A stretch of 34,083 bases of DNA, from IMG/VR virus record IMGVR_UViG_3300048904_000313, positions 73,468-107,550 of that record. The stretch is one strand, 5' to 3'. The notes below the pieces were generated by a model. The model searched no databases. It was given only the letters and a program-made list of their open reading frames with translations, and was not told the origin of the DNA. This document shows positions 18,826 to 22,210 of this stretch, one piece after another. The stretch is from a virus. The translations under genes and the position numbers were made by a program. Each line of letters starts with the position of its first letter. Position 1 is the stretch's first letter.

Positions 18826-18951
18826 TCAGTCCTTGCCCCAGCGCCACAGGATCCAGAGACCCCACAGCATCGGGATCAGGTACCGCAGGACCATGACGCC
18901 GCCAAAGACGGCGAGAAGGTCCAGCCAGGTGACGTGGACGTCCAGGGTCAC
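18826..18951 (-). CDS. 41-aa single-TM protein coupled to the Ro60 gene
   Basis: MTLDVHVTWLDLLAVFGGVMVLRYLIPMLWGLWILWRWGKD; GTGA overlap with the TROVE stop. Confidence 0.55.
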   Translation of the reverse strand: MTLDVHVTWLDLLAVFGGVMVLRYLIPMLWGLWILWRWGKD

Positions 18952-20660
18952 CCCTCGAACTCCTTCACCTTGTTGTACTTGGGCTCCCACGGCCAGCCGG
19001 TGCTGACACCCATCTCCAGCAGGGGAACCTGCTTGAAGGTGGCGTCGGTCAAGCCACCGAACTCGTGCTTGCCGTTCTCGCCGACCTTCATCATCGCCTG
19101 CTTGTAGCCGCCCAGGTTGAAGCCGTAGACGGGCACCGGCAGGTTCTGCGTGTAGTCGCCGTTGTAGCCACCGATCGTCTGCATGTCCGAGAAGATGAAC
19201 ACGCGGTCGTGCTTGCCCTTCTGGAACTGCCGACGAACGGCGCCGTGGATGTCAGTGCCGTGGCCCACGTCACCCACGCGCTGGACGAAGCGGTCGACCT
19301 CCTGGAGCGCCGAGGCGCCCAGGCGGATGTCGTGATGGAATTCGCCGCTGGCGAAGCCGTAGAGGTCCACCGATCCCGCGTTGGCAGTTGAGAGCGCCAC
19401 GCCGAACACCGCCGCTGCCTGGACGGGCGTCATGCTCGACTCGCGAGCGAAGACACCGCCCTCCATCGACGCCGAGGTGTCGATGAGCACCAGGCTGCGG
19501 CCGGGCAGCTCCGGGATGTTGCTCATGGAGTGGGTGAAGGCCCGCTCCAGGGCACTCGTAAAGCTGTTGCCGGGCACCGCCTGGTAGGCCTGCCACCAGC
19601 GGAACGGAAGCATGCGGGACTTGGCGATCTCGTCCGCGTCCATGAGACGGGCGTTGATCGCATCGATCTCCGCGTGGCCCAGGCCAGCCGCCTCCAGGTT
19701 GCGGAGGTTGCGCGCCAGGGCGAAGATCCCGAGCTGTGGCAGCACGAGCCGCCACTGCTCCGCCTTGGTGAGCGGGTTCTTGACGCCCTGAGTGTCGCCC
19801 AGCGAGCTGTGCAGCCACTCCCACTGGCCGGCCATGGCACGGTGGTAGAGGTTGCCCTCCAGGCCGTGCCGCAGTGCCAGCCGCGCCAGCTTGTGACGGT
19901 CGTTCGCCGACATGACGTTGACCATGCGACGCCCGCGGACGCCCTCGAGGAGCTCAGGAACGCCGTCGGCGTGACCGTGGCGGTCGTCGATGGCGAACCG
20001 GTACAGCGCGTCCTGGATCGGTCCGTCGTGCTTGGGGTGCACGAGGTCGATGACGTCCGCGAAGCGGAAGCCCTTCGACGCCGAGTCGTAGCGCAGGAAG
20101 CCACGCTGGGTGTACAGTCGCTGAACGGCGTCGGCGACGCCACGCTTGACGGGCTTCGGGATCTGCCGGCCATACTGAGAGATCCAGTAGCCGAGCATCT
20201 CACCGGGCTCGTCGGCGCGCTGCAGGACCGCGTCGATCACCATGCGGTTCCAGCCGCCGCCCACCTGGTTGGCGCGAGCGTTGTCGGGGGCGAGGTCACC
20301 CTTCCGAGTGGCCTTGAGACGGGCCGCCACGAACTCGGCCGCCCCCACCAGGCTCGCCGTGCGGAGGTTGCCCTCGGGACCACGCAGCCACTTGAGAAGG
20401 TTGTAGGTCCACTCCGGGTCGCTGACCGCGAGCTGGTGGATGAGCGTCTTGTAGCGGCTGTCACGACCGCCCGCGGACTCGTAGAACGTGTCCTGGCCCA
20501 CCATGTTGACCACGGCGAGCCCGAAGAGCTCACTCTTCGCGTCACGCAGGTAGCCCTTGCCGCCCTCGAACGTCGTCGTGACCTGATCGGTCGTTCGTAC
20601 CGGTGAGGTGGCCGTCAGCCGGCGGCCCACCGCCGTGACTGGCTTGTTGAAACGTGCCAC
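18948..20660 (-). CDS. rsr: Ro60/TROVE domain RNA-binding protein with C-terminal vWA domain
   Basis: True start is GTG 20660 (MARFNK...; RBS AGGAAGG). Motifs ELFGLAVVNMVGQDTFYE, NLRTASLV, QRADEPGEML, PKPVKRGVADA, ALARNLRNL, SRMLPFRW and vWA LIDTSASM...GT...SDMQ. Confidence 0.95.
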   Translation of the reverse strand: MARFNKPVTAVGRRLTATSPVRTTDQVTTTFEGGKGYLRDAKSELFGLAVVNMVGQDTFYESAGGRDSRYKTLIHQLAVSDPEWTYNLLKWLRGPEGNLRTASLVGAAEFVAARLKATRKGDLAPDNARANQVGGGWNRMVIDAVLQRADEPGEMLGYWISQYGRQIPKPVKRGVADAVQRLYTQRGFLRYDSASKGFRFADVIDLVHPKHDGPIQDALYRFAIDDRHGHADGVPELLEGVRGRRMVNVMSANDRHKLARLALRHGLEGNLYHRAMAGQWEWLHSSLGDTQGVKNPLTKAEQWRLVLPQLGIFALARNLRNLEAAGLGHAEIDAINARLMDADEIAKSRMLPFRWWQAYQAVPGNSFTSALERAFTHSMSNIPELPGRSLVLIDTSASMEGGVFARESSMTPVQAAAVFGVALSTANAGSVDLYGFASGEFHHDIRLGASALQEVDRFVQRVGDVGHGTDIHGAVRRQFQKGKHDRVFIFSDMQTIGGYNGDYTQNLPVPVYGFNLGGYKQAMMKVGENGKHEFGGLTDATFKQVPLLEMGVSTGWPWEPKYNKVKEFEG

Positions 20661-20701
20661 TTCAGTCGTTCCTTCCTGTCGCACCAGGCTGACCCTGATG
20701 A

Positions 20702-20778
20702 TGGGGTGACCGATGGGAGTTGAACCCACAACCACCGCGACCACAACGCGGCGCTCTACCTGGTTGAGCTACGGCCAC
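20702..20778 (-). tRNA. tRNA-His(GTG)
   Basis: GTGGCCG/CGGTCAC-C-CCA, TT-GTG-GT loop. Confidence 0.9.
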
Positions 20779-20785
20779 ACTTTGC

Positions 20786-20874
20786 GGTTCCCGAGACCGA
20801 GTTGCGGGACGGCATCTCTACGAGATTCCTTGAAAGGGAATTGAAGTAGCCGTGTCCACGTCACACCGGGAACC
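20786..20874 (-). ncRNA. Y-RNA-like unit A (no tRNA module; two small hairpins)
   Basis: GGTTCCCG-GTGTGA...CTACTTC...GGTCT-CGGGAACC, the scaffold shared with the six other units. Confidence 0.7.
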
Positions 20875-20949
20875 TGGCGCCGCTGAAGGGGATCGAACCC
20901 TCGGCCTTCGCGCTGACAACGCGACGCTCTCCCATTGAGCTACAGCGGC
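20875..20949 (-). tRNA. tRNA-Asp(GTC)
   Basis: GCCGCTG/CAGCGGC-G-CCA, TT-GTC-AG loop. Confidence 0.9.
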
Positions 20950-20961
20950 AATCTTCAGTTG

Positions 20962-21078
20962 TCAGGACTTCTGCTGGCAGCAGCTGCAACCGTTGCAGTG
21001 TGAGCCGAGCTTGCAGTACATGCACACCTCACCAAGGTGAGCCATGCGGTTGAGCCAGTTCTTGACACGAGCCTTCAT
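20962..21078 (-). CDS. 38-aa Cys-rich mini-protein inside the RNA array
   Basis: MKARVKNWLNRMAHLGEVCMYCKLGSHCNGCSCCQQKS, RBS TAAGGA. Confidence 0.55.
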   Translation of the reverse strand: MKARVKNWLNRMAHLGEVCMYCKLGSHCNGCSCCQQKS

Positions 21079-21111
21079 GCCGTTCCTTACGATCGAACTG
21101 TTCCCCGCTCG

Positions 21112-21185
21112 TACCGCCGGAGGGAGTTGAACCCCCAACATCTGGTTCCTGAAACCAGCGCCTCTGCCAGTTGGGCTACGACGGC
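21112..21185 (-). tRNA. tRNA-Leu(CAG) with a short variable loop
   Basis: GCCGTCG/CGGCGGT-A, Leu-type D arm GCCCAACTGGCAGAGGC, CTGGT-TT-CAG-GA-ACCAG, 5-nt variable region. Confidence 0.8.
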
Positions 21186-21190
21186 AAGGT

Positions 21191-21308
21191 GTGTCTGAGA
21201 CCAGGTGATCGACGGAGAGCGCACCAACCGCGCGACGGGCCAGCTCGAGAAGAGGAACCCGCATGGAGTTGAACCACGAAGTAACCGTGTGACCATCACA
21301 CCAGACAC
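21191..21308 (-). ncRNA. Y-RNA-like unit B (degenerate permuted T/acceptor/D module)
   Basis: GTGTCTG-GTGTGA...TTACTTC-GTGG-TTCAACT-CCAT...GCGCGGTTGGTGCGC...GGTCT-CAGACAC. Confidence 0.7.
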
Positions 21309-21463: not shown

Positions 21464-21472
21464 AAGCTTTAG

Positions 21473-21614
21473 TGGCGTCCGAGACCAAGGTTGGCGGTGG
21501 AGGAACGTAGGCGCTCTGCCAATTGAGCTACCGACCGACAGCCGGACGGGACTTGAACCCGCAACCACCCGCTTAAGAGGCGAAGTACCTCCGATGCCTT
21601 CACACCGGACACCA
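21473..21614 (-). ncRNA. Y-RNA-like unit D (permuted module with a Lys CTT anticodon-like loop)
   Basis: TGGTGTCCG-GTGTGAAG...TACTTC, CT-CTT-AA loop, GCGGG-TTCAAGT-CCCGT, looped acceptor, TAGCTCAATTGGCAGAGC, GGTCT-CGGACGCCA. Confidence 0.85.
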
Positions 21615-21628
21615 TTGTTGAGTTGTGG

Positions 21629-21779
21629 GCCGGCCGACACAGTTGAGACCAAAGTCGACTGGTGCAACGAGCTAGATCCACATCCAGCCCCACGAGTGGA
21701 GCCGCCCGGGGTCGAACCGGAATTGCCACTTGTTCAGAGTGAAGTAGCACCGTGTCTTCGCACCAACTGCTTGGCCGGC
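21629..21779 (-). ncRNA. Y-RNA-like unit E (tmRNA/Ala-like acceptor)
   Basis: CAGTTG-GTGCGAAG...TACTTC, T arm, CGGCTCC-A/GGGGCTG with G3.U70, no D stem, GGTCT-CAACTG. Confidence 0.8.
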
Positions 21780-21782
21780 TAC

Positions 21783-21859
21783 GAGTCTGAGACCAAAAAT
21801 GGCGTTTGCGGCGGACCTTTTTGCGAAGAAGTAGCCGCGGGTGCCTTCACACCAGACTC
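21783..21859 (-). ncRNA. Y-RNA-like unit F (minimal scaffold only)
   Basis: GAGTCTG-GTGTGAAG...CTACTTC...GGTCT-CAGACTC. Confidence 0.7.
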
Positions 21860-21938
21860 TAAGTCGGGCGGTCACCCCGTCTGGGGATAGCGGTCCGTCA
21901 GGGGGAGCCAACGAAAGGCCGTCAGACGGGGTGACCAG

Positions 21939-22011
21939 TGGCAAGGGCCGGGATCGAACCGGAGACCTCCCGTGTTTCAGACGGGCGCTCTACCAACTGA
22001 GCTACCGTGCC
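21939..22011 (-). tRNA. tRNA-Phe(GAA)
   Basis: CCCGT-CT-GAA-AC-ACGGG; one mismatch each in the acceptor and T stems. Confidence 0.8.
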
Positions 22012-22024
22012 GTGTTGTCTGCAT

Positions 22025-22166
22025 CCAGGGCGAGAACTAGGGCGGCGAGGGTGTTCGGACCGGTGTGCTAGGCCGCTGCACCACCAGACGTTGAAACGCC
22101 TGGGCAGGATTCGAACCTGCGTTGCCGGTTTGGAGTGAAGGAACCCTTACCTTCGCACCGCCCTGG
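22025..22166 (-). ncRNA. Y-RNA-like unit G (permuted tRNA-Trp(CCA)-like module)
   Basis: CCAGGGCG-GTGCGAAG...TCCTTC, CTCCAA-ACCGG, GCAGG-TTCGAAT-CCTGC, looped acceptor, D arm, CCGGT, GTTCT-CGCCCTGG. Confidence 0.85.
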
Positions 22167-22181
22167 TTGCTGACGAGGGAA

Positions 22182-22210
22182 ACATTACCAGGGCCTACGA
22201 GAGCTGTCCA
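22182..22210 (-). promoter_or_regulatory. Phage promoter driving the Y RNA/tRNA/Ro60 operon
   Basis: TGGACA-N17-TAATGT with TGG extension, ~15 nt before unit G. Confidence 0.75.

What the first reader, a model, noticed from the sequence alone, without database searches (positions are those of the whole stretch)
18948..22210. Phage Ro60 operon with seven diversified Y-RNA-like genes interleaved with four tRNAs
Seen: one promoter (22182-22210) precedes ~1.5 kb of almost purely non-coding DNA and then Ro60/TROVE. Seven units share a scaffold: a terminal stem of 7 bp or more, YGGTG(T/C)GA, an internal helix, T(A/C)CTTC, a variable cargo, and G(G/T)TCTC before the closing strand. The terminal stems all differ in sequence yet all pair, which is covariation. 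Cargo ranges from none (A, F) through degenerate (B) to full permuted tRNA modules (C, D, E, G). Established: bacterial Ro60 (Rsr) binds Y RNAs encoded next to it, YrlA-class RNAs carry a tRNA-mimicking domain, and usually only one or a few occur per locus. Inference: a modular RNP system in which one Ro60 ring is loaded with a repertoire of interchangeable tRNA-mimic adaptors.
Basis: partly seen in the sequence, partly recalled or inferred. Interest (0 to 1): 0.93.

Follow-up and report, generated by a model that had tools for sequence, protein, structure and literature searches.

The report
Seven-gene Y RNA array, phage Ro60
An uncultured 107-kb soil/root phage carries seven different small "Y RNA" genes mixed with four tRNA genes in one transcription unit in front of its Ro60 gene; this is the largest array of the known actinobacterial Ro60/Y-RNA system among about 200 loci examined, and what it does is untested.

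Summary
On the minus strand, 22166-20786, seven units share one scaffold. It has a 6-8 bp terminal stem that differs in every unit yet always pairs, then GGUGYGA, a second covarying helix, U(A/C)CUUC, a variable interior, and GKUCUC. A composite scan of the whole 107.5-kb phage finds exactly these seven. Four real tRNAs, one extra conserved hairpin and a 38-codon Cys-rich ORF are interleaved. A TROVE+vWA Ro60 gene follows.

A relative with 89% identical array DNA keeps all seven units, with 22 double compensatory changes.

The handle is not new. The same motif pair lies 1-3 times upstream of rsr in 36 of 36 Streptomycetaceae genomes and 2-6 times in other actinophage loci. These are therefore actinobacterial YrlA/YrlB-type Y RNAs (Chen 2014). 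Rfam's YrlA model scores them below threshold.

Three units carry full permuted tRNA mimics, two carry a T arm plus hairpins, and two carry only small hairpins.

Seven is the largest array I saw, but 5-6 is not rare. Earlier notes of this scan describe similar arrays on other DNA.

Ro60 binding, RNA processing and the "adaptor repertoire" idea remain inference. I rate it a new variant of a known kind, of moderate interest.

The parts
22182..22210 (-). Promoter-like site TGGACA-17 nt-TAATGT, in a divergent intergenic region
   Evidence: Read. It is not called by the strict sigma-70 scan. The -35 hexamer and TAnnGT -10 are conserved in relative L062 while the spacer differs. Plus-strand genes, including ThyX at 22924-23682, diverge from here.
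22025..22166 (-). Y1: handle plus a full tRNA-like module (4-5 bp anticodon-stem analogue, T arm, 8-bp capped acceptor hairpin, D arm). The rod is attached at the opened anticodon loop, and the loop sequence CUCCAAA is retained.
   Evidence: The permuted cargo is called a tRNA by ARAGORN. Its 3' half matches about 34 of 40 aligned positions of the phage's own tRNA-Trp.
21938..22011 (-). tRNA-Phe(GAA)
   Evidence: ARAGORN; Rfam tRNA 62.8 bits.
21869..21937 (-). Handle-less conserved hairpin with a 15-bp stem and a conserved apical part; role unknown (possible processing site or eighth RNA)
   Evidence: Folding z-score -4.4, with 0 of 200 shuffles as stable. The stem shows compensatory changes and the apex is conserved in L062.
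21783..21859 (-). Y2: handle-only unit (YrlB-like) with a 21-nt apical part
   Evidence: It is 95% identical in L062 and all 24 predicted pairs are unchanged.
21639..21770 (-). Y3: handle plus a T arm and two further hairpins; not a complete tRNA mimic
   Evidence: No ARAGORN call on any of 1920 permuted variants.
21473..21614 (-). Y4: handle plus a complete permuted tRNA (5-bp stem with 7-nt loop CUCUUAA, 5-nt variable loop, T arm, capped acceptor hairpin, D arm)
   Evidence: Rfam YrlA 44.1 bits, E=4e-8, over the T-acceptor-D part. The permuted cargo is called tRNA-Lys(CUU) in 413 of 726 calls.
21323..21463 (-). Y5: handle plus a complete permuted tRNA (loop UUUGGGA, variable loop AGGUC, T arm, UUCG-capped 8-bp acceptor hairpin, D arm)
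   Evidence: Rfam YrlA 28.8 bits. The permuted cargo is called tRNA-Pro(UGG) in 448 of 1076 calls. The MFE contains H1 and H3.
21191..21308 (-). Y6: handle plus a T arm directly after UACUUC, a branched hairpin and a D-like hairpin with GG in its loop
   Evidence: no tRNA call. A contig from an RNA library of a related strain, about 93% identical, covers 21111-21335 (weak).
21111..21185 (-). tRNA-Leu(CAG), starting 5 nt after the end of Y6
20962..21078 (-). 38-codon Cys-rich ORF with an AAGGAA ribosome-binding site
   Evidence: L062 keeps a shorter ORF with the same CxxC...CxxCxxCxCC pattern despite many indels (read).
20875..20949 (-). tRNA-Asp(GUC) with encoded CCA; Y7 begins at the very next base
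20786..20874 (-). Y7: handle plus two small hairpins. One of them (UUCC-CUUUCAA-GGAA) is identical in L062.
20702..20778 (-). tRNA-His(GUG), starting 7 nt after the end of Y7
20661..20701 (-). Ro60 mRNA leader with an eighth copy of the 5' handle half (CUGGUGCGA, 20687-20679) just before the GGAAGGA ribosome-binding site
   Evidence: The motif is conserved at -22 to -28 (about -55 in L061 by the locus's nominal start) before the Ro start in the nearest relatives L019/L060, L061, L062 and L076, but not in the other loci.
18948..20660 (-). Ro60 orthologue (570 aa; TROVE ring plus vWA with a DTSAS MIDAS motif), GTG start
   Evidence: Pfam and PDB hits. It is 42-47% identical to Streptomycetaceae Rsr and 35-41% identical to the actinophage 'Ro-like RNA binding protein'. 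The MIDAS motif was read.

Best explanation
This is a phage copy of the actinobacterial Ro60 (Rsr)/Y RNA system whose RNA side has been expanded to seven paralogous Y RNA genes and built into a tRNA operon.

Shown by sequence analysis:
- One promoter-like site is followed by 1.5 kb with no terminator-like site. That stretch holds Y1, tRNA-Phe, a hairpin, Y2-Y6, tRNA-Leu, a small ORF, tRNA-Asp, Y7, tRNA-His and then Ro60.
- Every unit is a rod closed by its own 5' and 3' ends: terminal helix H1, the conserved non-Watson-Crick pair of motifs 5' GGUGYG / 3' GKUCUC, a short helix H2 and a 5-bp helix H3.
- The rod ends in the conserved single-stranded UACUUC and a unit-specific distal module.
- H1 and H3 covary, the motifs do not, and a related phage preserves all seven by compensatory change.

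Inferred:
- The primary transcript is cut by the host's tRNA-processing enzymes. tRNA ends lie 0-13 nt from Y RNA ends.
- Each released RNA binds the phage Ro60 ring through the conserved motif pair, as Y RNAs do in animals, Deinococcus, Salmonella, M. smegmatis and Thermus phage phiLo.
- The distal module then determines what the particle contacts. The modules are three full tRNA mimics with Trp-, Lys- and Pro-like anticodon loops, two T-arm modules and two minimal hairpins.
- Because the phage encodes no PNPase, RtcB or CCA-adding enzyme, any effector must come from the host.
- The most likely use is to redirect host RNA decay or tRNA-handling machinery, or to blunt tRNA-directed defence, during infection.
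For: - Specificity of the seven units within the whole genome.
- H1 covariation: 42 of 42 cells paired with 2-4 pair types per position, against 9-20 of 42 when partners are slid. Permutation test 1 of 5040.
- H3 is cognate-specific across 43 units from 17 loci: mean helix 5.74 against 4.44, with 0 of 20000 permutations reaching the observed value.
- Orthologous array in L062: of 275 predicted pairs, 205 are unchanged, 19 are kept by a one-sided change, 22 are kept by double changes and 26 are broken. Of 24 pairs changed on both sides, 22 still pair.
- Handle modules lie on the Ro strand just upstream of Ro or rsr: 51 on that strand against 4 on the other in viral loci, and 97 against 0 in 36 Streptomycetaceae genomes.
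- Rfam YrlA gives partial hits on Y4, Y5 and Y1. Permuted cargos of Y1, Y4 and Y5 are recognised as tRNAs.
- Ro60 identity.
- No terminator-like site in 18500-22600.
- No RtcB, PolyA_pol/CCA-adding or RNase PH/PNPase family in the phage record, which CheckV rates 100% complete.
- Published precedent: Y RNAs are encoded next to Ro60 on the same strand, and YrlA carries a tRNA-like domain and a 5' GNCGAA motif (PMC4201824). Phage phiLo Ro60 binds two upstream Yrl RNAs and host PNPase (PMC12135203).
Against: - No direct evidence of transcription, processing or Ro60 binding. The only RNA-library signal is a low-depth contig of a related strain over tRNA-Leu and Y6, which could be DNA carry-over.
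- No unit reaches Rfam's YrlA gathering score of 69 bits.
- The 5' motif matches the published GNCGAAN0-1G only partly: UGCGAAG in Y1 and Y3, and UGUGA in the other five.
- The strict promoter scan finds nothing.
- Folding z-scores of single units are modest, -1.1 to -2.3.
- Twenty-six predicted pairs are broken in L062, so parts of my secondary structures are wrong.
- The anticodon-like triplets are not fixed between relatives: CUU becomes GUU in Y4, and the U33 equivalent becomes A in Y1. This weakens any model that needs a specific tRNA identity.
Confidence: 0.8

Rival explanations
1. Anti-defence decoys. The main job of the tRNA-mimic units is to soak up or mislead host tRNA-targeting nucleases (anticodon nucleases) or tRNA-damage sensors. 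Ro60 would serve mainly to stabilise or present them. This is a specific version of the main model rather than a strict alternative.
For: - Y1, Y4, Y5 and Y7 display 7-nt loops of anticodon-loop form: CUCCAAA, CUCUUAA, UUUGGGA and CUUUCAA.
- The units sit inside a phage tRNA operon.
- A Ro60-like protein of phage Bas63 was reported as a counter to the ppl defence system (preprint PMC11482910).
- The Salmonella rsr-yrlBA-rtcBA operon responds to damaged tRNAs (PMC7790460, abstract).
Against: - Two units have no tRNA-like part, and two have only a T arm.
- The loop triplet differs between close relatives, CUU against GUU, and the U33 equivalent is lost in the L062 copy of Y1.
- No nuclease target is known for the unknown host.
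- Nothing was tested.
Confidence: 0.2
2. The units are functional structured RNAs, but Ro60 is not their partner. They could be processing or spacer modules of the tRNA operon, cis-regulators of Ro60 expression, or partners of another protein.
For: - The units are tightly packed with tRNAs, 0-13 nt apart.
- A half-handle lies in the Ro60 leader next to the ribosome-binding site, which would fit a regulatory role.
Against: - The handle tracks Ro or rsr genes in bacteria that have no tRNA genes nearby: 36 of 36 Streptomycetaceae loci, always upstream and on the same strand.
- The 5' motif resembles the Ro-contacted strand of known Y RNAs (PMC4201824).
Confidence: 0.08
3. The units are decaying duplicates of tRNA genes and repeats, with no function of their own.
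For: The cargos are clearly tRNA-derived, and phage tRNA arrays do accumulate pseudo-tRNAs.
Against: - The handle is conserved while the stems covary.
- Twenty-two double compensatory changes separate the array from a relative whose array DNA is 89% identical.
- The same design recurs in dozens of phages and bacteria.
Confidence: 0.02

Closest known systems
Actinobacterial YrlA/YrlB Y RNAs with Rsr (M. smegmatis, Gordonia, Streptosporangium and mycobacteriophage ET08 in Chen et al. 2014, PMC4201824; Rfam RF02553)
   Same: - The genes lie upstream of Ro60 on the same strand.
- The rod is formed by the 5' and 3' ends, with a conserved purine-rich 5' motif containing (C/U)GA(A).
- A conserved YUAY precedes the tRNA-like part; here that is UACUUC.
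- The order T arm, capped acceptor-like hairpin, D arm is kept.
- tRNA-like (YrlA-type) and handle-only (YrlB-type) RNAs coexist.
- The identical handle is present 1-3 times upstream of rsr in 36 Streptomycetaceae genomes.
   Different: - There are seven units rather than 1-3.
- They are interleaved with four genuine tRNAs, a hairpin and a small ORF in one operon.
- Two mimics (Y4, Y5) keep a hairpin with every sequence hallmark of an anticodon arm followed by a 5-nt variable loop.
- The rod attaches at different points: in the anticodon loop in Y1, and at the junction between D arm and anticodon arm in Y4 and Y5.
- Rfam's model does not reach threshold on them, nor on the bacterial copies.
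Thermus phage phiLo Ro60 with Yrl1 and Yrl2 (PMC12135203; PDB 9KOP, 9L5Y)
   Same: - A phage-encoded Ro60 has Y-like RNAs directly upstream.
- The protein is detectably homologous (E=3e-14).
- That phage, like this one, lacks its own PNPase, and host PNPase joins the complex.
   Different: - phiLo has two RNAs, described as stem-bulge-stem RNAs with a CGAA motif.
- Here there are seven, most with tRNA-derived modules and a different handle sequence.
- There are no binding data for this phage.
Metazoan Y RNAs with Ro60 (hY1, hY3, hY4, hY5; the X. laevis Ro-Y RNA structure as cited in PMC4201824)
   Same: - Several paralogous Y RNAs share one Ro-binding stem formed by the RNA ends and differ in the distal loop.
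- The 5' strand motif is similar: GGUCCGA(AGG) in animals and GGUGYGA(AGG) here. The animal AGG extension is from my own knowledge.
   Different: - Animal Y RNAs have no tRNA-like domain.
- They are separate Pol III genes.
- The 3' partner motif differs.
- Similarity of the motif was read by eye and was not tested. Rfam Y_RNA gives no hit at E up to 10.
Salmonella rsr-yrlBA-rtcBA RNA repair operon (PMC7790460, PMC4201824)
   Same: Ro60 and Y RNAs are co-transcribed, and YrlA has a tRNA-like domain that tRNA enzymes modify.
   Different: - There is no RtcB or RtcA in the phage.
- There is no sign of RtcR/sigma-54 control.
- The handle sequence differs.

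Membership tests
YrlA/YrlB-type bacterial Y RNAs (Chen et al. 2014; Rfam RF02553) | Encoded within about 4 kb of a Ro60 orthologue, on the same strand | tested here: met
   All seven units lie 126-1506 nt upstream of the Ro60 start on the minus strand. The same holds in relatives.
YrlA/YrlB-type bacterial Y RNAs (Chen et al. 2014; Rfam RF02553) | The 5' and 3' ends pair into a stem that carries a conserved 5' motif GNCGAAN0-1G | tested here: inconclusive
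   The stem is met, with covariation. The motif is only partly met: UGCGAAG in Y1 and Y3, UGUGAAG in Y2, Y4 and Y5, UGUGAUG in Y6 and UGUGACG in Y7. The first G of the published motif is U here.
YrlA/YrlB-type bacterial Y RNAs (Chen et al. 2014; Rfam RF02553) | tRNA-like domain: T arm, acceptor-like hairpin and D arm in that order (YrlA), or none (YrlB) | tested here: met
   Y1, Y4 and Y5 are full. Y3 and Y6 have the T-loop GGUUCRANYCC plus other hairpins. Y2 and Y7 have none, like YrlB. In 23 aligned units the T arm and acceptor hairpin show compensatory changes in 10 of 12 pairs.
YrlA/YrlB-type bacterial Y RNAs (Chen et al. 2014; Rfam RF02553) | Score at or above the Rfam RF02553 gathering threshold (69 bits) | tested here: not met
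   The best scores are 44.1 bits (Y4), 28.8 (Y5) and 24.2 (Y1, misaligned into tRNA-Phe). In the 13 Streptomycetaceae rsr loci searched, none of the handle-bearing units reaches it either, so the model under-covers this branch.
YrlA/YrlB-type bacterial Y RNAs (Chen et al. 2014; Rfam RF02553) | Bound by Ro60/Rsr in vivo, and a substrate of tRNA enzymes (RNase P, TruB, DusA, CCA addition) | not testable with these tools
   This needs RIP, EMSA and modification mapping.
Ro60 / Rsr (TROVE + vWA ring protein) | TROVE (HEAT-repeat ring) domain followed by a vWA domain with a MIDAS motif | tested here: met
   PF05731 scores 32.9 bits against a cut-off of 23. VWA_2 scores 22.2 bits, below its cut-off of 27. 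A DTSAS (DxSxS) motif is read at about 19490-19476. phmmer hits 9KOP/9L5Y at 3e-14 and 2NVO at 1e-5. Identity to Streptomycetaceae Rsr is 42-47% over residues 1-559. I did not fold the protein.
Genuine tRNA genes (for the Y units) | Contiguous cloverleaf recognised by tRNA finders | tested here: not met
   ARAGORN and Rfam tRNA call only the four interleaved tRNAs in this stretch. The Y cargos are recognised only after circular permutation.

The most novel reading that the evidence does not exclude
The phage uses one Ro60 ring with a library of seven guide or adaptor RNAs as a programmable device in the tRNA arms race. Each tRNA mimic, with its Trp-, Lys-, Pro- or Glu-like anticodon loop, would capture or divert a different host tRNA-directed enzyme, such as a defence nuclease, modification enzyme or damage sensor. 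The half-handle in the Ro60 leader would let free Ro60 throttle its own synthesis. Array size would then reflect the number of host activities to be countered, and the changing loop triplets between relatives would reflect an arms race.
Probability: 0.15. Interest if true: 0.8.

Novelty: new variant of a known kind. Interest (0 to 1): 0.5.

Why it matters
What the tRNA-like domain of bacterial Y RNAs is for remains, as far as I know, unsettled. A phage that keeps seven different versions under selection, next to its own Ro60 and inside its tRNA operon, offers a natural set of variants to work with: full mimics, T-arm-only units and handle-only units.

Cultured relatives with 3-5 such units exist (Streptomyces phages BRock, GiJojo, Alone3 and Satis; Gordonia phage Rabbitrun). 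The question is therefore open to experiment.

There are also practical consequences:
- The handle pattern finds Y RNAs that Rfam RF02553 misses in Actinobacteria and their phages.
- Some GenBank 'tRNA' features in these phages appear to be Y RNA modules.

Tried and rejected
- Rfam at gathering thresholds gives no Y RNA family in the window. In the 13 Streptomycetaceae rsr loci and two viral loci searched, none of the handle-bearing units reaches the YrlA threshold either. Absence of an Rfam hit is therefore not evidence against.
- Rfam Y_RNA (the animal family) gives no hit even at E up to 10.
- Megablast of the locus against 50,697 phage records matches only 58 bp of tRNA-His. There is no close cultured relative.
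- MAFFT plus RNAalifold on 23 long units recovers only the T arm and acceptor hairpin, and on 14 short units recovers nothing. The variable cargo misaligns the 3' ends. For that reason the H1 and H3 covariation was counted with my own register-anchored scripts, not with the count of structure pairs or R-scape. I built no covariance model of my own.
- The strict promoter and terminator scan finds nothing in 18500-22600.
- RNA runs: X10 and X22 hold only small shares, mostly tRNA-like words from other organisms. One low-depth contig of a related strain covers tRNA-Leu and Y6. It carries what looks like a compensatory G-C to A-U change in H2, but this is a single contig of depth 2 and may be DNA. 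I do not count it as evidence of expression.
- The supplementary tables of Chen 2014, which list YrlA numbers per phage, and the Sim/Wolin reviews are not held. I could not check the largest published number of Y RNAs per phage.
- The local-hairpin reading, in which GGUG pairs with a downstream CAC(C), was considered and dropped. Pairing with the 3' strand (H2, H3) is supported across units and relatives.
- Similarity of the cargos to the phage's own tRNAs is weak except for Y1 against tRNA-Trp. Scores fall within the tRNA-against-tRNA background, so I make no claim about recent duplication.
- The small ORFs have no homologues in any fetched locus by tblastn. The L062 counterpart was seen only in the DNA alignment.

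Full report
WHAT IS THERE

The window is the last 34 kb of a single 107,550-bp, 66% G+C virus record with 18 tRNA genes. CheckV rates the record complete. Near-identical DNA occurs in root metagenome runs.

On the minus strand, the order after a promoter-like site (TGGACA-17-TAATGT, 22210-22182) is as follows:

| Feature | Coordinates |
|---|---|
| Y1 | 22166-22025 |
| tRNA-Phe | 22011-21938 |
| 15-bp hairpin | 21937-21869 |
| Y2 | 21859-21783 |
| Y3 | 21770-21639 |
| Y4 | 21614-21473 |
| Y5 | 21463-21323 |
| Y6 | 21308-21191 |
| tRNA-Leu | 21185-21111 |
| 38-codon Cys-rich ORF | 21078-20962 |
| tRNA-Asp | 20949-20875 |
| Y7 | 20874-20786 |
| tRNA-His | 20778-20702 |
| 570-codon TROVE+vWA gene | 20660-18948 |

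No terminator-like site is found anywhere in 18500-22600. Upstream genes, including ThyX, run the other way. One transcription unit is therefore the simplest reading, but it is an inference.

IS IT MORE THAN CHANCE?

A composite scan looked for GGTG[CT]GA, then G[GT]TCTC 30-220 nt downstream, with at least 5 bp of complementarity immediately outside the two motifs. On both strands of the whole genome it finds these seven units and nothing else.

At the six positions flanking the motifs all 42 cells pair, using 2-4 different pair types per position. Sliding the partner by 1-3 nt leaves 9-20 of 42 paired. Of the 5040 ways to assign 3' strands to 5' strands, only the true one gives full pairing.

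All seven minimum-free-energy folds keep this terminal helix. Single-sequence z-scores are modest, -1.1 to -2.3.

ANATOMY

Each unit is a rod made from its own two ends. From the outside in it has:
- H1, 6-8 bp and different in every unit.
- The invariant pair of motifs, 5' GGUGYG and 3' GKUCUC, which cannot form a regular helix with each other.
- A short, imperfect H2, typically 5' AAGG with 3' CCUU-like sequence.
- An internal loop.
- H3, whose 5' strand ends right before the conserved U(A/C)CUUC and whose 3' strand lies 10-14 nt before the 3' motif.

H3 differs in every unit: AGGGU/ACCCU, GCGGC/GCCGC, GGUGC/GCACC, GGAGG/CCUCC, CUCAC/GUGAG, ACGG/CCGU and ACGGC/GCCGU.

Within the seven units alone H3 is only weakly cognate-specific, with 146 of 5040 permutations reaching the observed value. 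Over 43 units collected from the window and 16 other loci it is clear: mean best helix 5.74 against 4.44, with 0 of 20000 permutations.

CARGO

- Y1 has a 4-5-bp anticodon-stem analogue that closes a T arm, an 8-bp capped acceptor hairpin and a D arm. The rod leaves from the opened anticodon loop, whose sequence CUCCAAA is retained. Its 3' half matches about 34 of 40 aligned positions of the phage's own tRNA-Trp.
- Y4 and Y5 are complete tRNAs opened between the D arm and the next hairpin. That hairpin has a 5-bp stem, a 7-nt loop (CUCUUAA in Y4, UUUGGGA in Y5) and is followed by a 5-nt variable loop (UGGUU, AGGUC).
- After circular permutation ARAGORN calls Y4 as tRNA-Lys(CUU) and Y5 as tRNA-Pro(UGG). 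It calls Y1 as a tRNA without a stable identity, and it does not call Y3 or Y6.
- Rfam's YrlA model aligns to the T-acceptor-D part of Y4 (44.1 bits, E=4e-8) and Y5 (28.8 bits).
- Y3 and Y6 keep a canonical T loop plus other hairpins.
- Y2 and Y7 have only small hairpins.

Chen et al. call the hairpin upstream of the T arm the 'V' arm and place the rod at the anticodon-stem position. The topology here is the same. In Y4 and Y5, however, that hairpin looks by sequence like an anticodon arm.

A CLOSE RELATIVE KEEPS EVERYTHING

Metagenome contig L062 has a Ro60 that is 84% identical over the part held. It aligns over the whole array at 89% identity and contains all seven units, the four tRNAs, the hairpin, a shorter Cys-rich ORF and the leader.

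Mapping my predicted pairs for the seven units onto it gives, for 275 pairs:
- 205 unchanged
- 19 kept by a change on one side
- 22 kept by changes on both sides
- 26 broken
- 3 with gaps

Of the 24 pairs that changed on both sides, 22 still pair. Examples in H1 are GUGUCC/GGACGC to GUACCU/AGGUAC in Y4, and GGUUCCC/GGGAACC to GGUCCAC/GUGGACC in Y7.

One-nucleotide indels are scattered through the array, so it is not coding. The -35 hexamer and the TAnnGT -10 are conserved while the spacer has diverged.

The anticodon-like triplets are not all conserved. Y4 has GUU in place of CUU, and Y1 loses the U33 equivalent.

WHAT FAMILY IS IT?

The protein is a Ro60 orthologue. Its nearest relatives are Rsr of Streptomyces, Kitasatospora and allies at 42-47% identity, and the 'Ro-like RNA binding protein' of Streptomyces, Gordonia and Arthrobacter phages at 35-41%.

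I searched all fetched loci for the 5' module: [GA][GAT]TG[CT]G, then 8-22 nt, then N[TC]ACTTC.
- In 21 phage or viral loci it occurs 51 times on the Ro strand and 4 times on the other. Nearly all Ro-strand copies lie in the 0.3-1.7 kb just upstream of Ro, with 2-6 per locus where present.
- In 36 of 36 Streptomycetaceae genomes it occurs 1-3 times directly upstream of rsr, 97 times on that strand and never on the other.
- Metagenome loci give up to 6.

Reading the sequences shows complete units in cultured phages:
- BRock has four: GAUGCG...UUACUUC...UUUUUCUA.
- Satis has three: GGUGCGA...UUACUUC...UGGUUAACC.
- GiJojo and Alone3 have five.

So the window's RNAs use the ordinary actinobacterial Y RNA handle. 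The published hallmarks are location, strand, a 5' motif around CGAA, a conserved YUAY before the tRNA-like part, the T-acceptor-D order, and the coexistence of YrlA- and YrlB-type RNAs (PMC4201824). All of these fit. The exceptions are that the first base of GNCGAA is U here, and that Rfam's model, which looks proteobacterial in its stem, scores these RNAs and the 13 bacterial loci searched below threshold.

HOW IT PROBABLY WORKS

Shown: the architecture, covariation, conservation and linkage to Ro60.

Inferred from the established biology of Ro60 and Y RNAs:
- Y RNAs bind Ro60 through the conserved stem near their ends and use the distal part to tether other proteins, or to gate the ring. 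This has been shown for D. radiodurans, Salmonella and M. smegmatis (PMC4201824) and for phage phiLo with host PNPase (PMC12135203).
- By analogy, the polycistronic RNA here is cut at the tRNAs by host RNase P and 3'-end enzymes. Y7 starts at the base after the CCA of tRNA-Asp. Its 3' end lies 7 nt before tRNA-His, that of Y6 5 nt before tRNA-Leu, and that of Y1 13 nt before tRNA-Phe.
- The ends are then trimmed back to H1.
- Each RNA binds the phage Ro60 through GGUGYG/GKUCUC.

The invariance of these motifs, next to freely covarying helices, is what one expects of a protein contact. UACUUC is conserved in every unit of every locus. It may be a second contact or a tertiary element; I cannot tell which.

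The phage has no RtcB, CCA-adding/poly(A) polymerase or PNPase/RNase PH genes. Any effector must therefore come from the host.

Whether the seven cargos recruit seven different partners is untested. I give the identity claim (Ro60 partner Y RNAs) 0.8. I give much less to the 'repertoire of adaptors with distinct partners' reading, and about 0.15 to its defence-centred version.

NOVELTY

The papers I could search describe the following:
- YrlA next to Ro60 in 254 bacteria and 22 phages, 355 RNAs in all, so few per genome (PMC4201824).
- Two Yrl RNAs in phiLo (PMC12135203).
- A suggestion that some 'tRNAs' next to a Ro60-like gene of phage Bas63 may be Y RNAs (PMC11482910).

I found nothing on arrays of this size, or on Y RNAs interleaved with tRNAs in one operon. 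The relevant supplementary tables and reviews were not available.

Within my own census, seven is the maximum among roughly 200 loci, but 5-6 occurs repeatedly. Earlier notes of this scan report comparable arrays of 4-7 handle-tagged RNAs beside Ro60-like genes in other phages. One of them is a six-unit array with this same G(A/G)UG(C/U)G...U(A/C)CUUC handle.

I therefore rate it a new variant of a known kind, of moderate interest. Its value lies in the natural series of cargo variants and in the fact that cultured relatives could be used to test it.

Noticed in passing
window 21869-21937 (-): A handle-less hairpin lies between tRNA-Phe and Y2. It has a perfect 15-bp stem and a folding z-score of -4.4. 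The apical roughly 40 nt are nearly identical in relative L062, while the stem carries compensatory changes. I found it only in these two phages. It may be an RNase III-type processing site or an eighth small RNA.
   Followed up: partly
window 20679-20687 (-), in the Ro60 leader: An eighth copy of the 5' handle half (CUGGUGCGA) lies 18 nt before the GTG start, directly in front of the GGAAGGA ribosome-binding site. The same motif sits at -22 to -28 (about -55 in L061 by the locus's nominal start) in the nearest relatives (L019/L060, L061, L062, L076), but not in the other loci. This may allow Ro60 to regulate its own synthesis.
   Followed up: partly
window 20962-21078 (-): A 38-codon Cys-rich ORF (CxxC...CxxCxCC) with a good ribosome-binding site is embedded between tRNA-Leu and tRNA-Asp. 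L062 has a shorter ORF with the same cysteine pattern at the same place. There is no Pfam hit and no tblastn hit in other loci.
   Followed up: partly
L004 3769-3843 (GiJojo tRNA-Arg cct), L005 3774-3847 (Alone3 tRNA-Ser gct), L003 3704-3775 (VanLee tRNA-Arg tct): These GenBank tRNA features lie inside, or overlap, Y-like units or sub-threshold YrlA hits. Their Rfam tRNA scores are 29.5 and 26.9 bits for the Alone3 and VanLee features and no listed tRNA match for the GiJojo one, at or below the 29-bit cut-off. They are probably tRNA-like modules of Y RNAs and not tRNAs. ARAGORN likewise calls a 'tRNA-Asn' inside the Y4 orthologue of L062.
   Followed up: partly
window 16392-17126 (-): A DUF7873 protein (Pfam E=8e-83) lies 1.8 kb downstream of Ro60, next to the second tRNA cluster (14950-15853). 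This phage region is dense in tRNA-related RNAs.
   Followed up: no
window 18826-18990 (-): A 54-codon hydrophobic ORF begins upstream of the Ro60 stop and overlaps the end of the Ro60 gene; an in-frame GTG overlaps the stop codon (GTGA), which suggests translational coupling. It has no family match.
   Followed up: no
L002 6079-6242 and L005 5967-6199: Sub-threshold matches to the manA RNA motif (RF01745, 49.7 and 47.8 bits against a gathering score of 55.2) lie between the two tRNA-Lys genes downstream of Ro in phages BRock and Alone3.
   Followed up: no
L022-L056, about 40 nt before the rsr start: Most Streptomycetaceae rsr leaders carry a hairpin of the form CCUCCC...GAGGGG that overlaps the ribosome-binding region, instead of the half-handle seen in the phage clade. 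The leader design is different.
   Followed up: no
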